Shown here in pieces: positions 1-43,200 of a stretch of 46,657 bases of DNA. The notes under the pieces were generated by a model, which had not been told where the DNA came from, did not search any database, and was given only the letters and a program-made list of their open reading frames with translations. Source of the stretch: a virus; the UHGV virus genome UHGV-0180138; one strand, given 5' to 3'. The translations under genes and the position numbers were made by a program. Each line of letters begins with the position of its first letter. Within the stretch, counting starts at the first letter, position 1.

Positions 1-431
1 TCATGACCCTGACATGACCCGGTCATGACCCCATCATGACCCTTAGGCGGCAAACTAGTTAGTTCACCTGAAGAAATCTTTTCCCTTAGATCTCTTATGG
101 CGTTTCTATATCCACTCTTTGAAGTCATTGATTGGTCTAATCTTTTTGCTAACGACAGACATCTCACGACACCATGCGAGCAATCGAATAAACCAACTTC
201 GATGAAGTATCTCATCATTTCTTCTACACGTTTCGGAGTTGATCCGACGTTACGGGCAATAATTCTCGCATCGTGTTTTAGTTCGAATGTCAGATTATGT
301 TGGTCTACTTCGTAAGCTATTAACTCGATGCAATACCAGTAAAGACCGTACCCTTCCAGACCATAATCAAGCAAAACGTTTTGAAGTTTTTCGTCGCGGT
401 TCGCATCGCTATCGTGCTTAAACCACTTCAT
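1..431 (-). CDS. replication initiator / replisome-organizer-like protein (truncated by left window edge)
   Basis: Open frame from ATG at 431-429 (minus) running off the window edge; N-terminus MKWFKHDSDANRDEKLQNVLLDYGLEGYGLYWYCIELIAY resembles phage replisome-organizer/DnaD-like N-terminal domains; start 2 nt after stop of upstream gene (coupled); not in ORF track because it is open-ended. Confidence 0.45.
   Translation of the reverse strand, partial: MKWFKHDSDANRDEKLQNVLLDYGLEGYGLYWYCIELIAYEVDQHNLTFELKHDARIIARNVGSTPKRVEEMMRYFIEVGLFDCSHGVVRCLSLAKRLDQSMTSKSGYRNAIRDLREKISSGELTSLPPKGHDGVMTGSCQGH
2..45. repeat. iteron-like repeats: four copies of CATGACCC at 11-bp period, including perfect palindrome GGTCATGACC
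   Basis: Direct reading: tcATGACCctgacATGACCcGGTCATGACCccatcATGACCctt; lies inside the replication-protein reading frame, analogous to ori-lambda iterons inside gene O. Confidence 0.4.
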
Positions 432-433
432 TT

Positions 434-688
434 CTATTCCTCCGGCAACATCAATACATAGACATCACTGAATGCATCTGGACGACAAATAAATCCTTTA
501 TGCGTTAACGCGACGAAAGCATCATGCACCGTATGAACAGGAAGTTCACACATTGCGGCTACTTCTTCGCGTGATACGTGCGTCCGGCGTTTATTGTCTG
601 TCTTTTCTGCCAACGCCATTAAGACAAGTTTTTGAATCGGGCTGTTAAGTTTTACCTTCCATGCCTCATTCATCAGGTGCATACTCAT
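434..688 (-). CDS. winged-helix DNA-binding protein, replication-O N-terminal-like
   Basis: 84 aa; segment LNSPIQKLVLMALAEKTDNKRRTHVSREEVAAMCELPVHTVHDAFVALTHKGFI matches the pattern of phage replication protein O N-terminal winged-helix domains; first gene of leftward operon. Confidence 0.5.
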   Translation of the reverse strand: MSMHLMNEAWKVKLNSPIQKLVLMALAEKTDNKRRTHVSREEVAAMCELPVHTVHDAFVALTHKGFICRPDAFSDVYVLMLPEE

Positions 689-994
689 TGATTTTTCTCC
701 TATGGTTAAAATGAACGCGCTGGCGGATATCCCATTATCATTAGATAGCAGTGATTGACCGCTTAACAGATCCCGCCGTTGCGTGATATTTGTTTTTCGC
801 TTCGCAGCGACACCTGGTTTTTAAAGAGCATAAGGTATGCGCCTTTTTGTGCTATTCCGTTATCTTTTTTCTTGCGTCTTTGCAACTATGGCCTTACCTT
901 GTCTGCAAGTTTACAGAATGGCGTTTTTGGGTCAAGACTTGAAAAATACATTTTGTGACTTGTATCAAACTTTTTGAGGTTATAGGGTAGCGAC
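689..994. promoter_or_regulatory. divergent control region between leftward replication operon and rightward repressor gene
   Basis: 306-bp non-coding gap between divergently oriented genes; contains variant GTTTACAGAATGGCG motif (909-923) and a TTTTTCGCTTCGCAGCG stretch (about 803-822) resembling the element at 23859 and 36726. Confidence 0.5.
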
Positions 995-1642
995 ATGAAA
1001 ACAAAATGGTATGACTTAGCAAAGCAGCTCATGCGAGCGCAAGGTATGAGCCAAGATTCACTCGCGGATCTCATGGGGATAACTAAAGGCGGCCTGTCAC
1101 ACTGGCTTAACGGTCGCCGCGAGCCAAATCTTGAAGATATTGCGCGGATTATGCGGGCGCTTGGTCGTCGGCAATTCACTGTTACACATGATGGAATGGT
1201 CATTGATGATTCTGTTTCTAACACGTTACCGGGAGCGCCGCAGCGTGATTTAGGCAGTTACCCGGTTGTTGACTGGAAGGACACAGTAAACAATATGGAT
1301 GATACAAGGCTATCAACATTACCACACGTTACGACTAGCGTTATTTGTTCAGATGATAGTTACTGGCTGGTTGCCAAAGGTGAATCAATGAACGCACCGC
1401 AAGGGTTGAGTATCCCTGCCGGGACGATGATACTTGTAGACCCGCACGCGCCAGCTATTGACGGCAAACTGGTTATAGCCCAGCTTGAGGAAGGGCAGAT
1501 ACCGACGTTTAAACAGTTGATTATTGATGGAGGTCAAAGGCTTTTACGTTCGCTCAATCCGCTGTATCCGCCAATCCCTATGAATCCAGAATCAAAAATT
1601 ATAGGCGTGGTGGTTGATGCGAAGATTGTAAACCTGCCATAA
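995..1642 (+). CDS. CI/LexA-like repressor (XRE-type HTH + S24 peptidase domain)
   Basis: 215 aa; N-terminal HTH (QDSLADLMGITKGGLSHWLNGRREPNLEDIARIM), C-terminal S24 fold with Ser in GESM and downstream Lys (FKQL); SD-like AGGGTAG before ATG. Confidence 0.85.
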   Translation: MKTKWYDLAKQLMRAQGMSQDSLADLMGITKGGLSHWLNGRREPNLEDIARIMRALGRRQFTVTHDGMVIDDSVSNTLPGAPQRDLGSYPVVDWKDTVNNMDDTRLSTLPHVTTSVICSDDSYWLVAKGESMNAPQGLSIPAGTMILVDPHAPAIDGKLVIAQLEEGQIPTFKQLIIDGGQRLLRSLNPLYPPIPMNPESKIIGVVVDAKIVNLP

Positions 1643-8664: not shown

Positions 8665-9188
8665 ATTGGGATGATTATTTTATATACAATCCGGACACGG
8701 GTAAGTTGTACTGGAAATATAGAAATGACATAGAAGAATCAAGGCGTAAACAATGGAATGCGTGTAATGCTGGTCATGAAGTTGGGCATATTGGCGGAAG
8801 CGGTGGGTATCTTAATACAACGCTTACCGTGGGTGGAAAGCGTTATAATTTAAAGGTGCATAGAATATGTTACGAGATGTACTATGGACCAATACCTGAA
8901 GGTAAGGAGGTTGATCATATAAATCACGTTAAAACAGATAATCGAGCCATCAATCTTGGATTAAAAGACCATAAAGATAATATGCGCAACATGTCTTTAA
9001 TGGTAAACAATACCAGTGGGTGCGCTGGTATCCATAAAAATAAACATGGTAAATGGGTTGTTAGAATCGGTGGAGGCAAAAGAGGTAATAGAATTTATAT
9101 AGGGTGTTTTTCTGATATTAATGACGCAATAAAAGCTAGGCGCGACGCTGAAAAAGAGTATGGCTATCATGAAAATCACGGCAAATAG
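8661..9188 (+). CDS. HNH endonuclease (HNH_3 + AP2-like domain)
   Basis: VHRICYEMYYGPIPEGKEVDHINHVKTDNRAINL HNH motif; paralog of 21849-22352. Confidence 0.75.
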   Translation: MNWDDYFIYNPDTGKLYWKYRNDIEESRRKQWNACNAGHEVGHIGGSGGYLNTTLTVGGKRYNLKVHRICYEMYYGPIPEGKEVDHINHVKTDNRAINLGLKDHKDNMRNMSLMVNNTSGCAGIHKNKHGKWVVRIGGGKRGNRIYIGCFSDINDAIKARRDAEKEYGYHENHGK

Positions 9189-9879
9189 AACGGCTTATTC
9201 AATGTTTGATGGATCTGGAATCATGCTTCTTGAGTATGCGAAGGCTGGTTATCAGTGCTATTGTTTTAATGCTGATGAGGGCAATCATGGTGAATATTTT
9301 ATTAAAATGAAACATAAAAATTTGCATTATGTGAATATATGGATTGATGAAAATTTTATTGATAACATCATCAAAATGGATATCCAGAAGCCTGATATTG
9401 TATTTGGCTTTCCAGACTGTACTATGTTTGCGCAGTCTGGTAGTAAACATGTTCGTGATAATAACGATGTTATGGTGGCGCTAAAAAATGCAATCATGGT
9501 TGAAAGTGTAGGTAATTATTTTGGTGTTCCGTGGATGGCTGAAAATCCTGTAGGAAGACTGTCAACATTATGGCGCAAGCCAGATTTTTATTTTAATCCG
9601 CGTGATTTCGGTAATTATCTTGATGAATCTGATGGATCGTTTCATCCAAAAATGCCGTTGAAGGATGGGTATACCAAAAAAACAGCTATTTGGCATGGCA
9701 ACGGATTTATTGAGCCTAAGCGCAATCCTTTAAGCGACAATGAAGGTGTGATGTTTTTTTGGGGTTGGCGATGGTTAGGAGGCAAATCAGCAAAGACAAA
9801 ACAGCTTCGTTCACTCACACCGCGCGGCTTTGCCCGTGCTGTATTCCTGGCTAACCATGACCGCGTTTTACCGGACTAA
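9160..9879 (+). CDS. short DNA cytosine-C5 methyltransferase-like protein
   Basis: 239 aa; motif I-like FDGSGIM, motif IV-like GFPDCTMFAQSG (cf. GFPCQ), motif VI-like ENPVG (cf. ENV); unusually short, no obvious target-recognition domain. Confidence 0.5.
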   Translation: MAIMKITANRTAYSMFDGSGIMLLEYAKAGYQCYCFNADEGNHGEYFIKMKHKNLHYVNIWIDENFIDNIIKMDIQKPDIVFGFPDCTMFAQSGSKHVRDNNDVMVALKNAIMVESVGNYFGVPWMAENPVGRLSTLWRKPDFYFNPRDFGNYLDESDGSFHPKMPLKDGYTKKTAIWHGNGFIEPKRNPLSDNEGVMFFWGWRWLGGKSAKTKQLRSLTPRGFARAVFLANHDRVLPD

Positions 9880-9880
9880 A

Positions 9881-9961
9881 GTTTACAAAATGGCGTCATT
9901 GCGTGATGCGGATCACATAATGGCGCTTTTTGCCTTGTTTTGGGGTATCCATTTTGTATAC
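9881..9961. promoter_or_regulatory. inverted pair of conserved motif (GTTTACAAAATGGCG at 9881-9895 plus; GTATACAAAATGGA at 9961-9948 minus)
   Basis: Direct reading; intergenic gap after methyltransferase gene. Confidence 0.5.
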
Positions 9962-32439: not shown

Positions 32440-33099
32440 TTAATTCCAGTTGCAAGCGTTTTTCACTTTGTCGATGTGGTTATAAAGACCATCAATGTTA
32501 AACACCGCTTTCTCAATGTCGCCAGCTTCCGGCACTACTTCAATGATGAATTGTTTTTCGTTAACCATTTTTTTAATCATTGGGATGGCTTTTTTGCCGT
32601 CCCATAATCCAAGAGCTTTATAATTAGTTGACCGTCCCCACTCAGTAGCTACAGCTTTGTGAACGCCGATCCGGTAGTTAATATAAGTAGTGTCCCCGGC
32701 GTCAGTTACATGGTGTGACCATGCTACGAACATTTTTGTTTTATTACCCTGGCAAGCGATTGTTAATACCGGTTTATTCTTATCCTGTGCCTTCAGTGTC
32801 GGGAAAGCATCAAGACTTCCGCTGAATTGTTCTGCTTTCACAAAAAGGAATACGTTTTTTGCGTCCTGCATATCATCTTTTCTTTCAACTACAAGCCACT
32901 GTTTACCAGCATTTTCTTTTTCTAACTGTGCATCGTATGCGGCTTGTTTTGCTTGTTGTTCTGCAAGCCATTTAGCATTTTTCTCTGCTAATGCTTGTTG
33001 TTCTTGATTGGTCACTATAGGCGCTTTTTCATTATCCTCATTGCAACCAACCAGACCCAATACCGCCGCAATCATTGCCACTTTTGCTAACCGTTTCAT
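32440..33099 (-). CDS. lipoprotein (219 aa)
   Basis: Signal peptide plus lipobox LVGC; Gln/Ala/Lys-rich linker then globular domain. Confidence 0.6.
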   Translation of the reverse strand: MKRLAKVAMIAAVLGLVGCNEDNEKAPIVTNQEQQALAEKNAKWLAEQQAKQAAYDAQLEKENAGKQWLVVERKDDMQDAKNVFLFVKAEQFSGSLDAFPTLKAQDKNKPVLTIACQGNKTKMFVAWSHHVTDAGDTTYINYRIGVHKAVATEWGRSTNYKALGLWDGKKAIPMIKKMVNEKQFIIEVVPEAGDIEKAVFNIDGLYNHIDKVKNACNWN

Positions 33100-36186: not shown

Positions 36187-36441
36187 TCACTTATGGCAAC
36201 CGCGCACGCCAGATAATTCATTAAATTTGTGATGCTCGACGATTACCCATGCTTTCAAGTCTTGGCTATAAACACGCCAATCTAAATTGGCGCGGAAGGC
36301 GTAGCCGTAGCCGTCCTTTAATTTTTTGGGTGCAACATCTTTGTTTAAAAACGCGTTCAGAAGTTCTTTTGCTTTTTTGATTACGTGTCCAGGTGCGTTT
36401 TTCTGTGCTTTCAGGTTTTTGTCAATCGCTACCAGTTTCAT
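36187..36441 (-). CDS. RelE/YoeB/ParE-superfamily toxin-like protein (candidate)
   Basis: 84 aa; pattern VIKKAKELLNAFLNKD...KKLKDGYGYAFRANLDWRVYSQDLKAWVIVEHHK resembles RelE/ParE fold (helices then strand with W/Y-R-V-Y and V-I-V-x-x-H); SD GGGGTGAG; motif-level only. Confidence 0.35.
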   Translation of the reverse strand: MKLVAIDKNLKAQKNAPGHVIKKAKELLNAFLNKDVAPKKLKDGYGYAFRANLDWRVYSQDLKAWVIVEHHKFNELSGVRGCHK

Positions 36442-40273: not shown

Positions 40274-43200
40274 ATGAGTAGCGGCGGCGGCAAAGCCAAA
40301 ACACCAACATTATTGAACGATAACCTGTATCATAAACAGTTTTATCGTGTTTTAGATATTCTCAGCGAAGGGCCGATATACGGTCCGGTAAACCAGAAAG
40401 CGCCACTGAATGACGTGATGCTTAATGACACGCCTGTTACTGACGCAAACGGGAATACATCAATCCCGGGGATTAGTATAGCCTGGCGCAACGGCACGGC
40501 TGATCAATCTCCGATTAATGGTTTTAATGCCATCGAGTCAACCGTTATTGTCAACGCAAAGGTAACTCACGACACGCCAATAATCAGGACTGTTTCAGAT
40601 CCAAACGTTACCCGCGTCAGGTTGAATCTTGGTGTTGATGCTCTCGTTCAATCAGATAATAAGGGCAACCAATATAATACATCTGTCATGTTGATGGTGG
40701 ATGTTAAACCGTCATCATCTTCTACGTGGTCGCTGGTTAAAGATATACACATTGGTCCTGGTAAACAAAGCGGTGAATATCTGGAAGCTCACATCATTAA
40801 AGCGCCGGATGAAAAACCGTTTGATATTCGCGTTCGTCGCGTAACACCAGACAGCAACAGTGATCTATTGCAGAATGATACGCGGTGGAGTAGCTACAGC
40901 GAAATCATAGACGATAATCTGTCTTATCCTCATACCGCTGTAGCTGGCGCCGTAATTGACCATGATCAGTATACTGATACGCCTACCCGCACCTATCACC
41001 TTCGTGGCCTGATTGTTGATGTGCCTGACAACTACAACCCTGAAACGCGCACATATTCAGGTTTATGGCTTGGTGGATTTAAAAAGGCGTATACCAATAA
41101 CCCTGCATGGCTTTTCCGGTATCTGGTTAAAAACGAGCGCTTTGGGCTTGCTCGACATGCTGGTTACATTGATGTTGATGATGGCGCTTTGTACGTGCTT
41201 TCTCAATACTGCGATCAGTTGGTTGATGATGGCTATGGTGGCCTTGAACCTCGCATGACGCTTAACGCTTACATTACAGAGCAAATGAGCGCCCGCGATT
41301 TACTGGACAATATCGCCGGGATGTTCCGAGGCATCGCGTTATGGGACGGACAACGCCTTACCGTGATGATTGATGCGCCACAAGACCCGATCGCCACCAT
41401 CACAAACGCAAACGTCGTTGATGGTGCGTTCACTCGTTCAAGTATCGCCCGAGCAGAATGCTACAACGCCGTGATTGTATCATGGACTGACCCGGAAAAC
41501 GGCTGGGAGCAATCAAAAGAGTATGTGGCAGATGATGAGCTAATCGCCCGTGATGGTTATAACGAAACCACGTTGGAGGCGTTCGGGTGCACTTCACGCG
41601 GGCAAGCGCACCGCGCTGGTAAATGGCTGATAGAAACAGCAAAACGCGAGCCGTCAAAATTCACGTTTAAAATGGCCCGTGATGCGATTCACTTTACGCC
41701 AGGGGATATAATCGAGATCCTCGACAATAACCGCGCAGGCGCGCGTTTAGGCGGTCGTATCGTGGCGAACAATGGGAAAGTGATAACGGTCGATAAAGTC
41801 GATTCAGAATACATTGCAGCAGGCGACACCATCAGTTTACTTGATGGCGATGGCAAATTTAAAAAACATCAGATCACTGGTGTTAACGGGAACAAAATCA
41901 CACTGGCAGCAGCCCCGGCATGGATTCGGAACGGTACTGTTTTTGCTGTATCAACCGAATCTGCAAAACCCGTTTTATGTCGAATCATCAGCGTAGCAGA
42001 AACTGAAAACAACAGCGTGTACACCATCGAAGCAGCGCAACATGACCCGAAAAAACAAGCAGTAGTCGATGAAGGCGCTATATTTGAAATCAACAACGAC
42101 ACGCTTAATCACTTCCGCGTGCCGAGCATTGAAAATCTGAAGGTGGTAAACATTGGATCTGAAACGGTTCAATGCCGCGCAACATGGGAGACACAGACAA
42201 CAACACATCGCATGACCTTTGAGATCCGCATATATAACACAGATGGTGCGGTTGTTAAAAGCTACGAAACAACGAAATACAGTTATGATTTTTATGGCAT
42301 CGACGCTGGCGCGTATTCGTTAGGCGTTCGCGGAAGAAATGATACTGGCATGAAGGGCGCTGAAAGTATTGTTGATCTTGTTATTGGTGCGCCAGCCTCG
42401 CCAATAGGCGTTAACTGGGTTCCAGGTGTATTTCAGGCTACAGTGTACCCGATAAGCAAAACAACGCTAACAACTGATACAGCGTATGAGTTCTACTATG
42501 CAGGGAAAAACCAGATTACAGATCCTGCAAAAATAACCACGTCTGCGCAGTTTACCGGGCGCGGGTATCAGTGGACGTTCGGTGGAATGAACACGGGCCA
42601 TACTTATTACGTTTATGTGCGCACGCGCAATGCCTTTGGCGTGTCAGACTTCGTTGAGGCGTCAGGTAAGCCAACTGAAAACTTCGATGAAATCAGCGAC
42701 TATGTCACCAAAGACGTGATGAACTCAGAGCAATTTAAGGAATTGGTAAGTGATATTAAGGATCTTGGTGATCGCACTGATATTATAGAAAGCGCAACCG
42801 CCGACCTTAAAACAGCAACCGCCGACCTTAAAACAGCTACAGATGGCCTTAAAACTGATACAGATACACTTAAAAAAGACACCGAAGACCTTTATAAAAA
42901 AGTCGAAGAAAACGCCGATGGAATAGGCAAACATGAGGTAAGAATAGACTCATTAGAGGTATCAAACGAAAACGTTAATAACGAACTGGCACAGACAAAA
43001 GCAAGTTTACAAAACGCTTCGCTTGCTCTGATCAACAACTCGCTTGCTCAAACTAACACGCGGGTTACTCTTACCGCTCAATATAAGAAAGGTCGCAACG
43101 AAACAAAGGCACAGATTGACCGTATCGACAACGTTATCGCAGATGAGAAAAAATCGACAGCGGAATCACTGGAAACCATCACAGCAGAAATAAGCGCGAT

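What the first reader, a model, noticed from the sequence alone, without database searches (positions are those of the whole stretch)
2..45. Iteron-like 11-bp periodic repeats with a palindromic core inside the replication-protein reading frame
Four CATGACCC units spaced one helical turn apart, one forming the perfect palindrome GGTCATGACC, lie inside the C-terminal coding region of the leftward replication gene. Lambda places its origin iterons inside gene O in the same way. A related CATGACCGGG occurs once in the GC-rich gap at about 19687. This is a candidate replication origin, but the array may continue beyond the window edge.
Basis: partly seen in the sequence, partly recalled or inferred. 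Interest (0 to 1): 0.45.

Follow-up and report, generated by a model that had tools for sequence, protein, structure and literature searches.

The report
Phage replication origin inside initiator gene
The four 11-bp-spaced repeats are very probably the protein-binding half of this temperate phage's replication origin, written into the linker-coding middle of its own initiator gene as in phage lambda; the layout is familiar, but it has not been described for this protein family (Lin1244_N/DUF4373).

Summary
The repeats are real: CATGACCC occurs at 2, 13, 24 and 35, exactly 11 bp apart, and GGTCATGACC lies at 21-30. Three details of the finding are wrong. The array sits at codons 130-143 of a ~350-codon gene, in the linker after an N-terminal winged-helix domain (Pfam Lin1244_N), not in the C-terminal part. 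It does not continue past the edge. The site at 19686 is a chance single copy.

The window is the start of a 54.5-kb circular metagenome scaffold of an mEpimmI-type coliphage. The assembly broke in the AT-rich tract that abuts the array in every relative.

About 45 relatives keep a phased array at this spot, as two types with palindromic cores: TCATGA, or CCATGG. Distant Vibrio, Pseudoalteromonas and Pantoea phage homologues keep the same order: winged helix, 3-5 phased repeats, purine-rich AT tract.

The period cycles through the three codon frames. The copy where TCATGA would create an in-frame TGA stop is the degenerate one, so selection acts on the DNA.

The gene sits where lambda O sits, upstream of a DnaB-like helicase or a P-like loader.

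Verdict: a lambda-style origin, a new member of a known kind. No binding or initiation was tested.

The parts
1..44 (.). Iteron array: four 11-bp units, TCATGACCCTG (1-11), ACATGACCCGG (12-22), TCATGACCCCA (23-33), TCATGACCCTT (34-44). The core is the palindrome TCATGA. On the coding (minus) strand they read GGGTCATGA.
   Evidence: 93% identical to prophage L003, while the adjoining 46-119 is 61% identical. Present at the same place in about 45 relatives.
12..22 (-). The one variant copy. On the coding strand it reads GGGTCATGT, not GGGTCATGA, because in this codon frame (TCA-TGx) the consensus would give an in-frame TGA stop.
   Evidence: Frame table: 0 of 20 frame-1 slots carry CATGA, and 8 of 20 lose CATG. 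In frames 0 and 2, 66 of 73 slots carry CATGA. Relatives have GTCAAGA or GTCAGGA at this copy.
21..30 (.). Perfect 10-bp palindrome GGTCATGACC, an extension of the palindromic core of the third + strand copy.
   Evidence: conserved in type-A relatives.
1..431 (-). 5' part (codons 1-143) of the initiator gene, cut by the window edge. Codons ~1-100 encode the Lin1244_N winged-helix domain, 106-121 a helix, and 127-143 a disordered peptide dictated by the iterons (KGHDGVMTGSCQGH).
46..126 (-). Hypervariable linker-coding segment (codons ~102-129), unique to this phage. It lies between a beta-allele N-domain and type-A iterons, so it marks a mosaic junction.
   Evidence: megablast matches to relatives start only at 106-120, apart from one weak end-to-end match (82.7%) to prophage UMNK88.
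434..688 (-). 84-aa winged-helix protein resembling the N-terminal DNA-binding part of O-like initiators. It is the first gene of the leftward early operon and an alternative candidate for iteron binding.
   Evidence: phrog_4617, E 4e-19, and other 'replication initiation' families; alleles do not follow the iteron type; absent near distant homologues.
689..994 (.). Divergent control region between the leftward early operon and the cI-like repressor gene. A weak sigma-70-like leftward promoter lies at 935-908. Transcription from here would run through the origin.
   Evidence: consensus match only, 9 of 12; gene layout. Inferred, not shown.
995..1642 (+). CI/LexA-type repressor (HTH plus S24 peptidase). 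Context only; it places the origin in the early region.
   Evidence: PMC11893012.

Best explanation
Window 1-44 is the initiator-binding (iteron) half of the phage's origin of replication. It is embedded in the linker-coding middle of the phage's own initiator gene.

Proposed mechanism:
1. Early leftward transcription from the cI-proximal control region expresses the 84-aa winged-helix protein and the ~350-aa initiator, and passes over the origin.
2. Dimers of the initiator's N-terminal winged-helix domain (Lin1244_N) bind the four palindromic TCATGA cores. The cores are 11 bp apart, so they lie on one face of the helix, and binding would form an O-some-like oligomer.
3. This complex strains and opens the adjoining ~65-bp tract. 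The tract is 70-80% A+T and strongly purine/pyrimidine asymmetric. It is lost in the assembly gap just left of the window.
4. The C-terminal domain brings in the phage's own DnaB-like helicase, encoded ~1.5 kb downstream.

Shown here: the array, its conservation, its DNA-level selection, the AT tract in relatives, the fold, and the gene order. Inferred: binding, who binds, unwinding, helicase recruitment.
For: 1. The array is far beyond chance and unique in the window.
2. It is an island of conservation: window 1-45 is 93% identical to prophage L003, 46-119 is 61%, and 120-431 is 83%.
3. All ~45 mEpimmI-type relatives carry a phased 11-bp array at the same codons, directly abutting a T/C-rich tract of 70-80% A+T.
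4. Two array types exist with symmetric cores, TCATGA x4 and CCATGG x5. Both half-sites changed together, as expected for a dimeric reader.
5. Selection is on the DNA. An 11-bp period cycles the codon frame, giving H (CAT), M (ATG) and C/W (TGY/TGG) in turn. CATGA is present in 66 of 73 slots in frames 0 and 2, and in none of 20 slots in the frame where it would be a stop; there 8 of 20 copies have decayed.
6. The feature is family-wide. Homologues with 45-65% identical N-domains from Vibrio, Pseudoalteromonas, Pantoea, Pseudomonas and Paraglaciecola phages and from metagenomes show the order winged helix, then 3-5 phased repeats (GTCATGA, or GTCCCGACA in another subgroup, or 21-bp units), then a purine-rich AT tract. 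Phased chains of at least 3 occur in codons 101-175 in 49 of 62 distinct genes, against 2 of 62 in the N-domain and 0 of 38 in the C-terminus.
7. The gene occupies the lambda-O position, immediately upstream of a DnaB-like helicase (Pq0, JLT2, 1.036.O, 1.119.O) or a lambda-P-like loader (PdC23). In this phage the helicase is three genes downstream.
8. PHROG profiles call the full-length relative L003 'replication initiation O-like' or 'DnaD-like helicase loader'.
10. The N-domain allele follows the iteron type in 47 of 48 loci.
11. The lambda layout (iterons plus AT tract in the middle of gene O) is as described in PMC7466680.
Against: - There is no experimental evidence of binding, unwinding or initiation for any member of this family. 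Nothing was found in the searchable literature.
- The AT tract is not in the window or its scaffold (assembly gap), so for this phage it is inferred from relatives.
- The window phage pairs a beta-allele N-domain, 100% identical over aa 1-101 to type-B phages, with type-A iterons. This weakens the claim that this domain alone sets specificity.
- Linkage alone could explain why N-domain allele and iteron type are inherited together.
- The winged-helix fold is generic: Foldseek against the PDB was not significant and mean pLDDT was 70.
- The units are 11 bp, much shorter than lambda's 19-bp or plasmid 17-22-bp iterons.
Confidence: 0.78

Rival explanations
1. The array is the origin, but it is read by the separate 84-aa winged-helix protein (window 434-688). 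That protein would be a split-off lambda-O-type N-terminal domain, and the Lin1244 protein would act only as replisome organiser or helicase loader.
For: The 84-aa protein matches the first ~70-90 residues of several PHROG 'replication initiation (O-like)' families, best E 4e-19. It is encoded directly upstream of the initiator gene in all mEpimmI-type phages. The window's mismatch between N-domain allele and iteron type leaves room for another reader.
Against: Its alleles do not follow the iteron type: each type-B phage's copy is closest (88-94%) to a type-A phage's copy. No homologue lies within 2.5-4 kb of 44 distant loci, many of which carry TCATGA-type arrays.
Confidence: 0.13
2. The array is a protein-binding site with a non-origin role, for example autoregulation or a transcription roadblock of the early operon, or a centromere-like or packaging recognition site.
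For: Phased short palindromic repeats also occur in operators and partition sites. The window edge coincides with a contig end in three assemblies. No origin mapping exists.
Against: The array is invariably coupled to an AT-rich tract and sits inside the initiator gene next to the helicase or loader gene in unrelated genome contexts. No partition genes were seen in the stretches examined. The scaffold's two ends lie ~45 nt apart in the same gene, so the edge is an assembly break, not a physical end. In mEp515 the gene is internal, at 8849-9904 of the record.
Confidence: 0.06
3. There is no DNA-level function: the repeats reflect a repeated peptide, slippage in a low-complexity linker, or chance.
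For: The encoded segment is predicted disordered (pLDDT below 50 at residues 127-143), the kind of region where repeats can drift. In Athena1 and PvVp04_M the unit is 21 bp and in frame.
Against: An 11-bp period is out of frame, so the four copies encode different peptides (GHD, VMT, SC, GH). The DNA motif is kept across hosts from E. coli to Vibrio while the neighbouring coding sequence diverges. The only degenerate copy is the one where the motif would be a stop codon. Chance expectation is ~1 copy per window.
Confidence: 0.02

Closest known systems
Phage lambda ori inside gene O (and lambdoid or Stx phage variants)
   Same: The origin lies in the middle of the initiator gene. It has four (to six) repeats that are themselves inverted repeats, followed in the direction of transcription by an AT-rich tract. 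The repeats fall in the region coding the linker after the N-terminal DNA-binding domain, and the next replication gene provides or loads the helicase (PMC7466680). That lambda's AT tract is also purine/pyrimidine asymmetric is from my own recollection, not a tool result.
   Different: The protein is not a Pfam Phage_rep_O member; only PF14297 was hit. The units are 11 bp at one per helical turn, rather than 19-bp iterons. The phage brings its own DnaB-type helicase rather than hijacking the host's through P. An extra 84-aa O-N-terminal-like winged-helix gene lies upstream.
Origins inside rep genes of RepA_N plasmids and of Gram-positive phages (SPP1 gene 38 oriL, TP901-1 and Tuc2009 rep genes). 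Cited from my own knowledge, not checked here.
   Same: Initiator-binding repeats are embedded in the initiator's own coding sequence, between an N-terminal DNA-binding domain and a variable C-terminal host- or helicase-interaction domain. The module is shuffled as a unit.
   Different: These are different protein families and different repeat sequences and lengths. None is reported for Lin1244_N/DUF4373 proteins in the searchable literature.
Iteron plasmids (pSC101, R6K, F, P1, RK2). From my own knowledge.
   Same: Directly repeated, helically phased initiator sites next to an AT-rich unwinding element.
   Different: Plasmid iterons are 17-22 bp, spaced about two turns apart, lie outside the rep gene, and also serve copy-number control by handcuffing. 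Nothing here suggests that.

Membership tests
Lambda-type origin embedded in the initiator gene (architecture, not protein homology) | Three or more phased repeats of one motif | tested here: met
   Four copies at exact 11-bp spacing; conserved in relatives.
Lambda-type origin embedded in the initiator gene (architecture, not protein homology) | AT-rich unwinding tract directly beside the repeats | tested here: met
   Met in every relative: ~65 nt at 70-80% A+T against 43-57% in the flanks. In this phage the tract falls in the assembly gap; only its first ~17 nt are seen at the other scaffold end.
Lambda-type origin embedded in the initiator gene (architecture, not protein homology) | Location inside the initiator gene, after its DNA-binding domain | tested here: met
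   Codons 130-143 of ~350, after the winged-helix domain at residues ~25-97.
Lambda-type origin embedded in the initiator gene (architecture, not protein homology) | Initiator binds the repeats, and replication starts there | not testable with these tools
   Needs EMSA or footprinting and origin mapping.
Lambda O protein family (Pfam PF04492 Phage_rep_O) | Sequence match to the family profile | tested here: not met
   Pfam scan at E <= 0.01 returns only PF14297. PHROG 'replication initiation O-like' phrog_345 is matched at E 1.7e-18, which indicates a functional label and a distant relation only.
Lin1244_N / DUF4373 (Pfam PF14297) | Profile match above the curated cut-off | tested here: met
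   45 bits against a cut-off of 25, E 1.9e-11, residues 3-85. 1205 homologues at E <= 1e-5.
Plasmid-type iterons | 17-22-bp units, about two helical turns apart, outside the rep gene | tested here: not met
   The units are 11 bp, one turn apart, inside the gene.
DnaA-box origin | Cluster of TTATCCACA-like boxes at the site | tested here: not met
   14 matches with up to 1 mismatch in the window against 12 expected; none within 1 kb of the array except one at 1074.
Known structured RNA | Rfam match | tested here: not met
   Only a sub-threshold snoRNA hit (27 bits against a gathering score of 70) at 94-171.

The most novel reading that the evidence does not exclude
Lin1244_N/DUF4373 proteins would be a large, so far uncharacterised class of phage origin-binding initiators. 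Their origin would be a portable cassette written into their own linker: phased palindromic cores plus a purine tract. It would be readable directly from sequence across Gammaproteobacterial phages. The window phage would be a natural hybrid (beta winged helix with TCATGA iterons), showing that the domain reads mainly the central CATG, or that specificity lies outside the winged helix. That would make origin-specificity swapping in this family directly testable.
Probability: 0.3. Interest if true: 0.55.

Novelty: new member of a known kind. Interest (0 to 1): 0.42.

Why it matters
This gives a concrete, testable origin for the mEpimmI group of gut coliphages. Their genome paper does not mention an origin or iterons.

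It also assigns a function to a domain of unknown function, DUF4373/Lin1244_N. More than a thousand homologues were found in phage and metagenome proteins.

The rule 'winged helix, then phased repeats, then a purine-rich AT tract' lets origins be annotated from sequence in many marine and enteric phages.

The stop-codon-avoiding copy is a clean textbook case of a protein-coding constraint and a DNA-binding constraint sharing the same bases.

It does not reveal a new principle of replication.

Tried and rejected
- Exact-match searches for the window's unique linker in viral contigs and genome contigs found nothing. The source scaffold was instead recovered through exact protein look-ups.
- A physical genome end (cos or pac) as the reason for the window edge was rejected. 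Both scaffold ends lie in the same gene, ~45 nt apart.
- The 19686 site as a related element was rejected as a chance single copy.
- A peptide repeat was rejected on frame grounds.
- Rfam gave nothing. DnaA boxes are at chance level.
- The promoter scan gave only weak consensus matches, 4 found against 2.6 expected.
- Class-specific residues between the TCATGA-type and GTCCCGACA-type N-domains were looked at. The clearest difference is RLDxSMTSN against RTDEYTQK just after the wing. This is confounded by phylogeny and was not used as evidence.
- GC skew was judged uninformative because it follows transcription direction.

Full report
**1. What is in the sequence**

The window opens with TCATGACCCTG ACATGACCCGG TCATGACCCCA TCATGACCCTT.
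- CATGACCC occurs at 2, 13, 24 and 35. Only two further copies exist in 46,657 bases. About 1.0 is expected, and none of 100 dinucleotide-preserving shuffles reaches 6.
- Tandem Repeats Finder calls period 11, 3.9 copies, at 1-43. It finds no comparable array elsewhere in the window or in the off-window part of the replication module.
- GGTCATGACC at 21-30 is a perfect palindrome. More generally each core, TCATGA, is its own reverse complement.

Three details are not.

**2. Where it lies**

- The leftward ORF begins at the ATG at 431-429 and is still open at base 1, after 143 codons.
- It carries Pfam PF14297 (Lin1244_N, formerly DUF4373) at residues 3-85: 45 bits against a cut-off of 25.
- The nearest records are mEpimmI-group coliphages (mEp515, MagusPhagus) and E. 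coli prophages. There the gene is 348-366 codons long.
- The array therefore sits at codons ~130-143, between the N-terminal domain and a C-terminal domain. It is not in the C-terminal part.

**3. Why the window starts there, and whether the array goes on**

- Exact-protein look-ups show the window is bases 1-46657 of a 54,509-nt metagenome scaffold, PASO19-1_SAMN09781776_METAG-scaffold_148.
- The far end of the scaffold carries the last 189 codons of the same gene and stops at ...CCTGATTGACTTCTTTTCTTTTTATAT.
- In relatives with the same flank (L038, L042, L046) that sequence continues for ~45-50 more nucleotides of T/C-rich tract, up to TTCTAAT|TCATGACCC.
- The scaffold is therefore a circular permutation with a small assembly gap in the tract. 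Two other assemblies stop at the same base.
- Type-A relatives have exactly four copies, so the window holds the whole array. What is missing is the AT-rich partner.

**4. Conservation**

- All ~45 mEpimmI-type loci examined have an 11-bp-period array at the same codons, abutting the tract.
- The tract is 70-80% A+T over ~65 nt, against 43-57% in the flanks. It is pyrimidines on the window's + strand.
- The array is an island. Window 1-45 is 93% identical to prophage L003, the adjoining 46-119 is 61%, and the N-domain coding part is 83%.
- Two types occur: TCATGA-core x4 (type A) and CCATGG-core x5 (type B; L004, L005, L040, L042). Both cores are palindromes that differ by a symmetric change of the outer base pair, as expected if a dimer reads two half-sites.

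**5. Selection acts on the DNA, not the peptide**

- Eleven is not a multiple of three, so successive copies fall in codon frames 0, 2, 1, 0.
- CATG is then read as His (CAT), Met (ATG) and Cys/Trp (TGY/TGG). This gives KGHDGVMTGSCQGH here and KPWHNHDAAMAQPCHSHG in type B.
- In frame 1 the consensus TCATGA would create an in-frame TGA stop.
- Over 28 distinct arrays, CATGA is present in 66 of 73 slots in frames 0 and 2, and in 0 of 20 slots in frame 1. Eight of those 20 have lost CATG altogether, reading GTCAAGA or GTCAGGA. One caveat: the chains were anchored on CATG at their two ends.
- In the window the frame-1 copy is the one that reads GGGTCATGT on the coding strand (+ strand 12-22).
- The encoded peptide is predicted disordered (pLDDT below 50 for residues 127-143).

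**6. A family-wide layout**

- A protein search found 1205 homologues at E <= 1e-5.
- Among cultured phages the N-domain occurs in 48 of 50,697 records, mostly Vibrio, Pseudoalteromonas and Pantoea phages.
- Their proteins keep ...SHDGVMT...(V/I)MQDKIRLD.... At DNA level this is 2-5 phased (G)TCATGA copies running into CAAGATAAGATTAGAT-type purine tracts.
- Another subgroup has 4-6 copies of GTCCCGACA or GTCGGGA at 11 bp. Athena1 and PvVp04_M have three 21-bp units, each containing GTCATGA. All are followed by a purine-rich tract.
- Phased chains of three or more copies occur in codons 101-175 in 49 of 62 distinct genes, against 2 of 62 in the N-domain coding part and 0 of 38 in the C-terminal part.

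**7. Function of the gene**

- In distant phages the gene lies directly upstream of a DnaB-like helicase (Pq0, JLT2, 1.036.O, 1.119.O) or a lambda-P-like protein (PdC23). That is the position of lambda O.
- In this phage the order, read leftward, is: 84-aa wHTH, initiator, a 33-aa ORF, a 372-aa nuclease-like protein, then a DnaB-like helicase.
- PHROG profiles label the full-length relative L003 'replication initiation O-like', 'replication initiation protein' and 'DnaD-like helicase loader'.
- The N-domain models as a winged helix (H25-39, b48-50, H51-62, H66-79, b83-85, b88-90; mean pLDDT 70).

**8. Who reads the repeats**

- The N-domain has two alleles in the coliphage group. Alpha goes with type A in 43 loci and beta with type B in 4 loci. 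The window is the single exception: beta with type A.
- The upstream 84-aa protein resembles the N-terminal part of O-like initiators. However, its alleles are shuffled independently of iteron type. It also has no homologue near 44 distant loci, many of which carry such arrays.
- The window's hybrid state is unexplained. The domain may read chiefly the shared CATG, specificity may lie in helix 106-121, or the phage may be a recent recombinant.

**9. Mechanism proposed**

Binding, unwinding and helicase recruitment are inferred. The rest is shown above.
- Early leftward transcription crosses the origin.
- Initiator dimers occupy four cores on one helical face.
- The complex opens the adjoining AT-rich, strand-asymmetric tract.
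- The C-terminal domain recruits the phage helicase.

This is the lambda scheme: iterons plus an AT tract in the middle of gene O (PMC7466680).

**10. Comparison and novelty**

- The architecture is that of ori-lambda and of other origins inside initiator genes.
- The protein is not a Phage_rep_O member. The units are 11 bp rather than 19-22 bp. The phage supplies its own helicase.
- I found no description of an origin in Lin1244_N/DUF4373 genes, or in mEpimmI phages, in the searchable literature.
- I class it as a new member of a known kind. It is useful for annotation and makes a tidy dual-coding example, but it is not a new principle.

**11. Rejected**

- The 19686 site: a single copy with chance-level counts.
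- A physical genome end.
- A peptide repeat.
- A structured RNA.
- A DnaA-box origin.

Noticed in passing
window 1-431 against L004 and L003: This phage is the only one of 48 related loci that combines the beta allele of the winged-helix domain (100% identical over aa 1-101 to CCATGG-type phages) with TCATGA-type iterons. Its linker codons 102-129 match neither cassette. The origin region is a mosaic junction.
   Followed up: partly
window base 1; L085, L086, L087 ends; L088 end (24236): Three independent assemblies stop at exactly the first base of the outermost iteron. The other scaffold end stops ~45 nt away inside the T/C-rich tract. Relatives differ in tract length by TTCTAA or TTCTTC units, so low coverage or length heterogeneity of the tract probably breaks assemblies.
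   Followed up: partly
window 434-688 (-): The 84-aa O-N-terminal-like winged-helix protein is allelically diverse (~70-94% identity among relatives), although the cI repressor is nearly invariant and its alleles do not follow the iteron type. Its DNA target is unknown.
   Followed up: partly
L063-L079, L096, L097 (mid-gene): Other Lin1244_N subgroups carry different phased repeats at the same place: GTCCCGACA or GTCGGGA x4-6 at 11 bp, TCCCGGACAA, or three 21-bp in-frame units in Vibrio phages Athena1 and PvVp04_M. All are followed by an AGA/GAA-rich tract.
   Followed up: partly
window 42794-42879: A 21-bp in-frame tandem repeat (about 3-3.6 copies, TRF score 89) lies inside the 1511-aa GpJ-like tail-tip gene (40274-44809).
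   Followed up: no
window ~32440-33099 (-) and ~36187-36441 (-): Opposite-strand VasI-like (PF11319) and ParE-like (PF24732) genes lie inside the tail-gene cluster. They coincide with low-GC, negative-skew 1-kb bins, so they look like moron inserts.
   Followed up: no
window 113-134 (coding strand GACCAATCAATGACTTCAAAG): The nearly invariant peptide S-M-T-S just after the winged helix is encoded by TCAATGACT. This resembles an iteron core with one extra base. It may be coincidence.
   Followed up: no
window 19650-19850: A GC-rich stretch downstream of the 156-aa ORF ending at 19649 overlaps an 86-aa minus-strand ORF (19621-19881). It holds the lone CATGACCGGG, and no repeat structure was seen around it.
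   Followed up: partly
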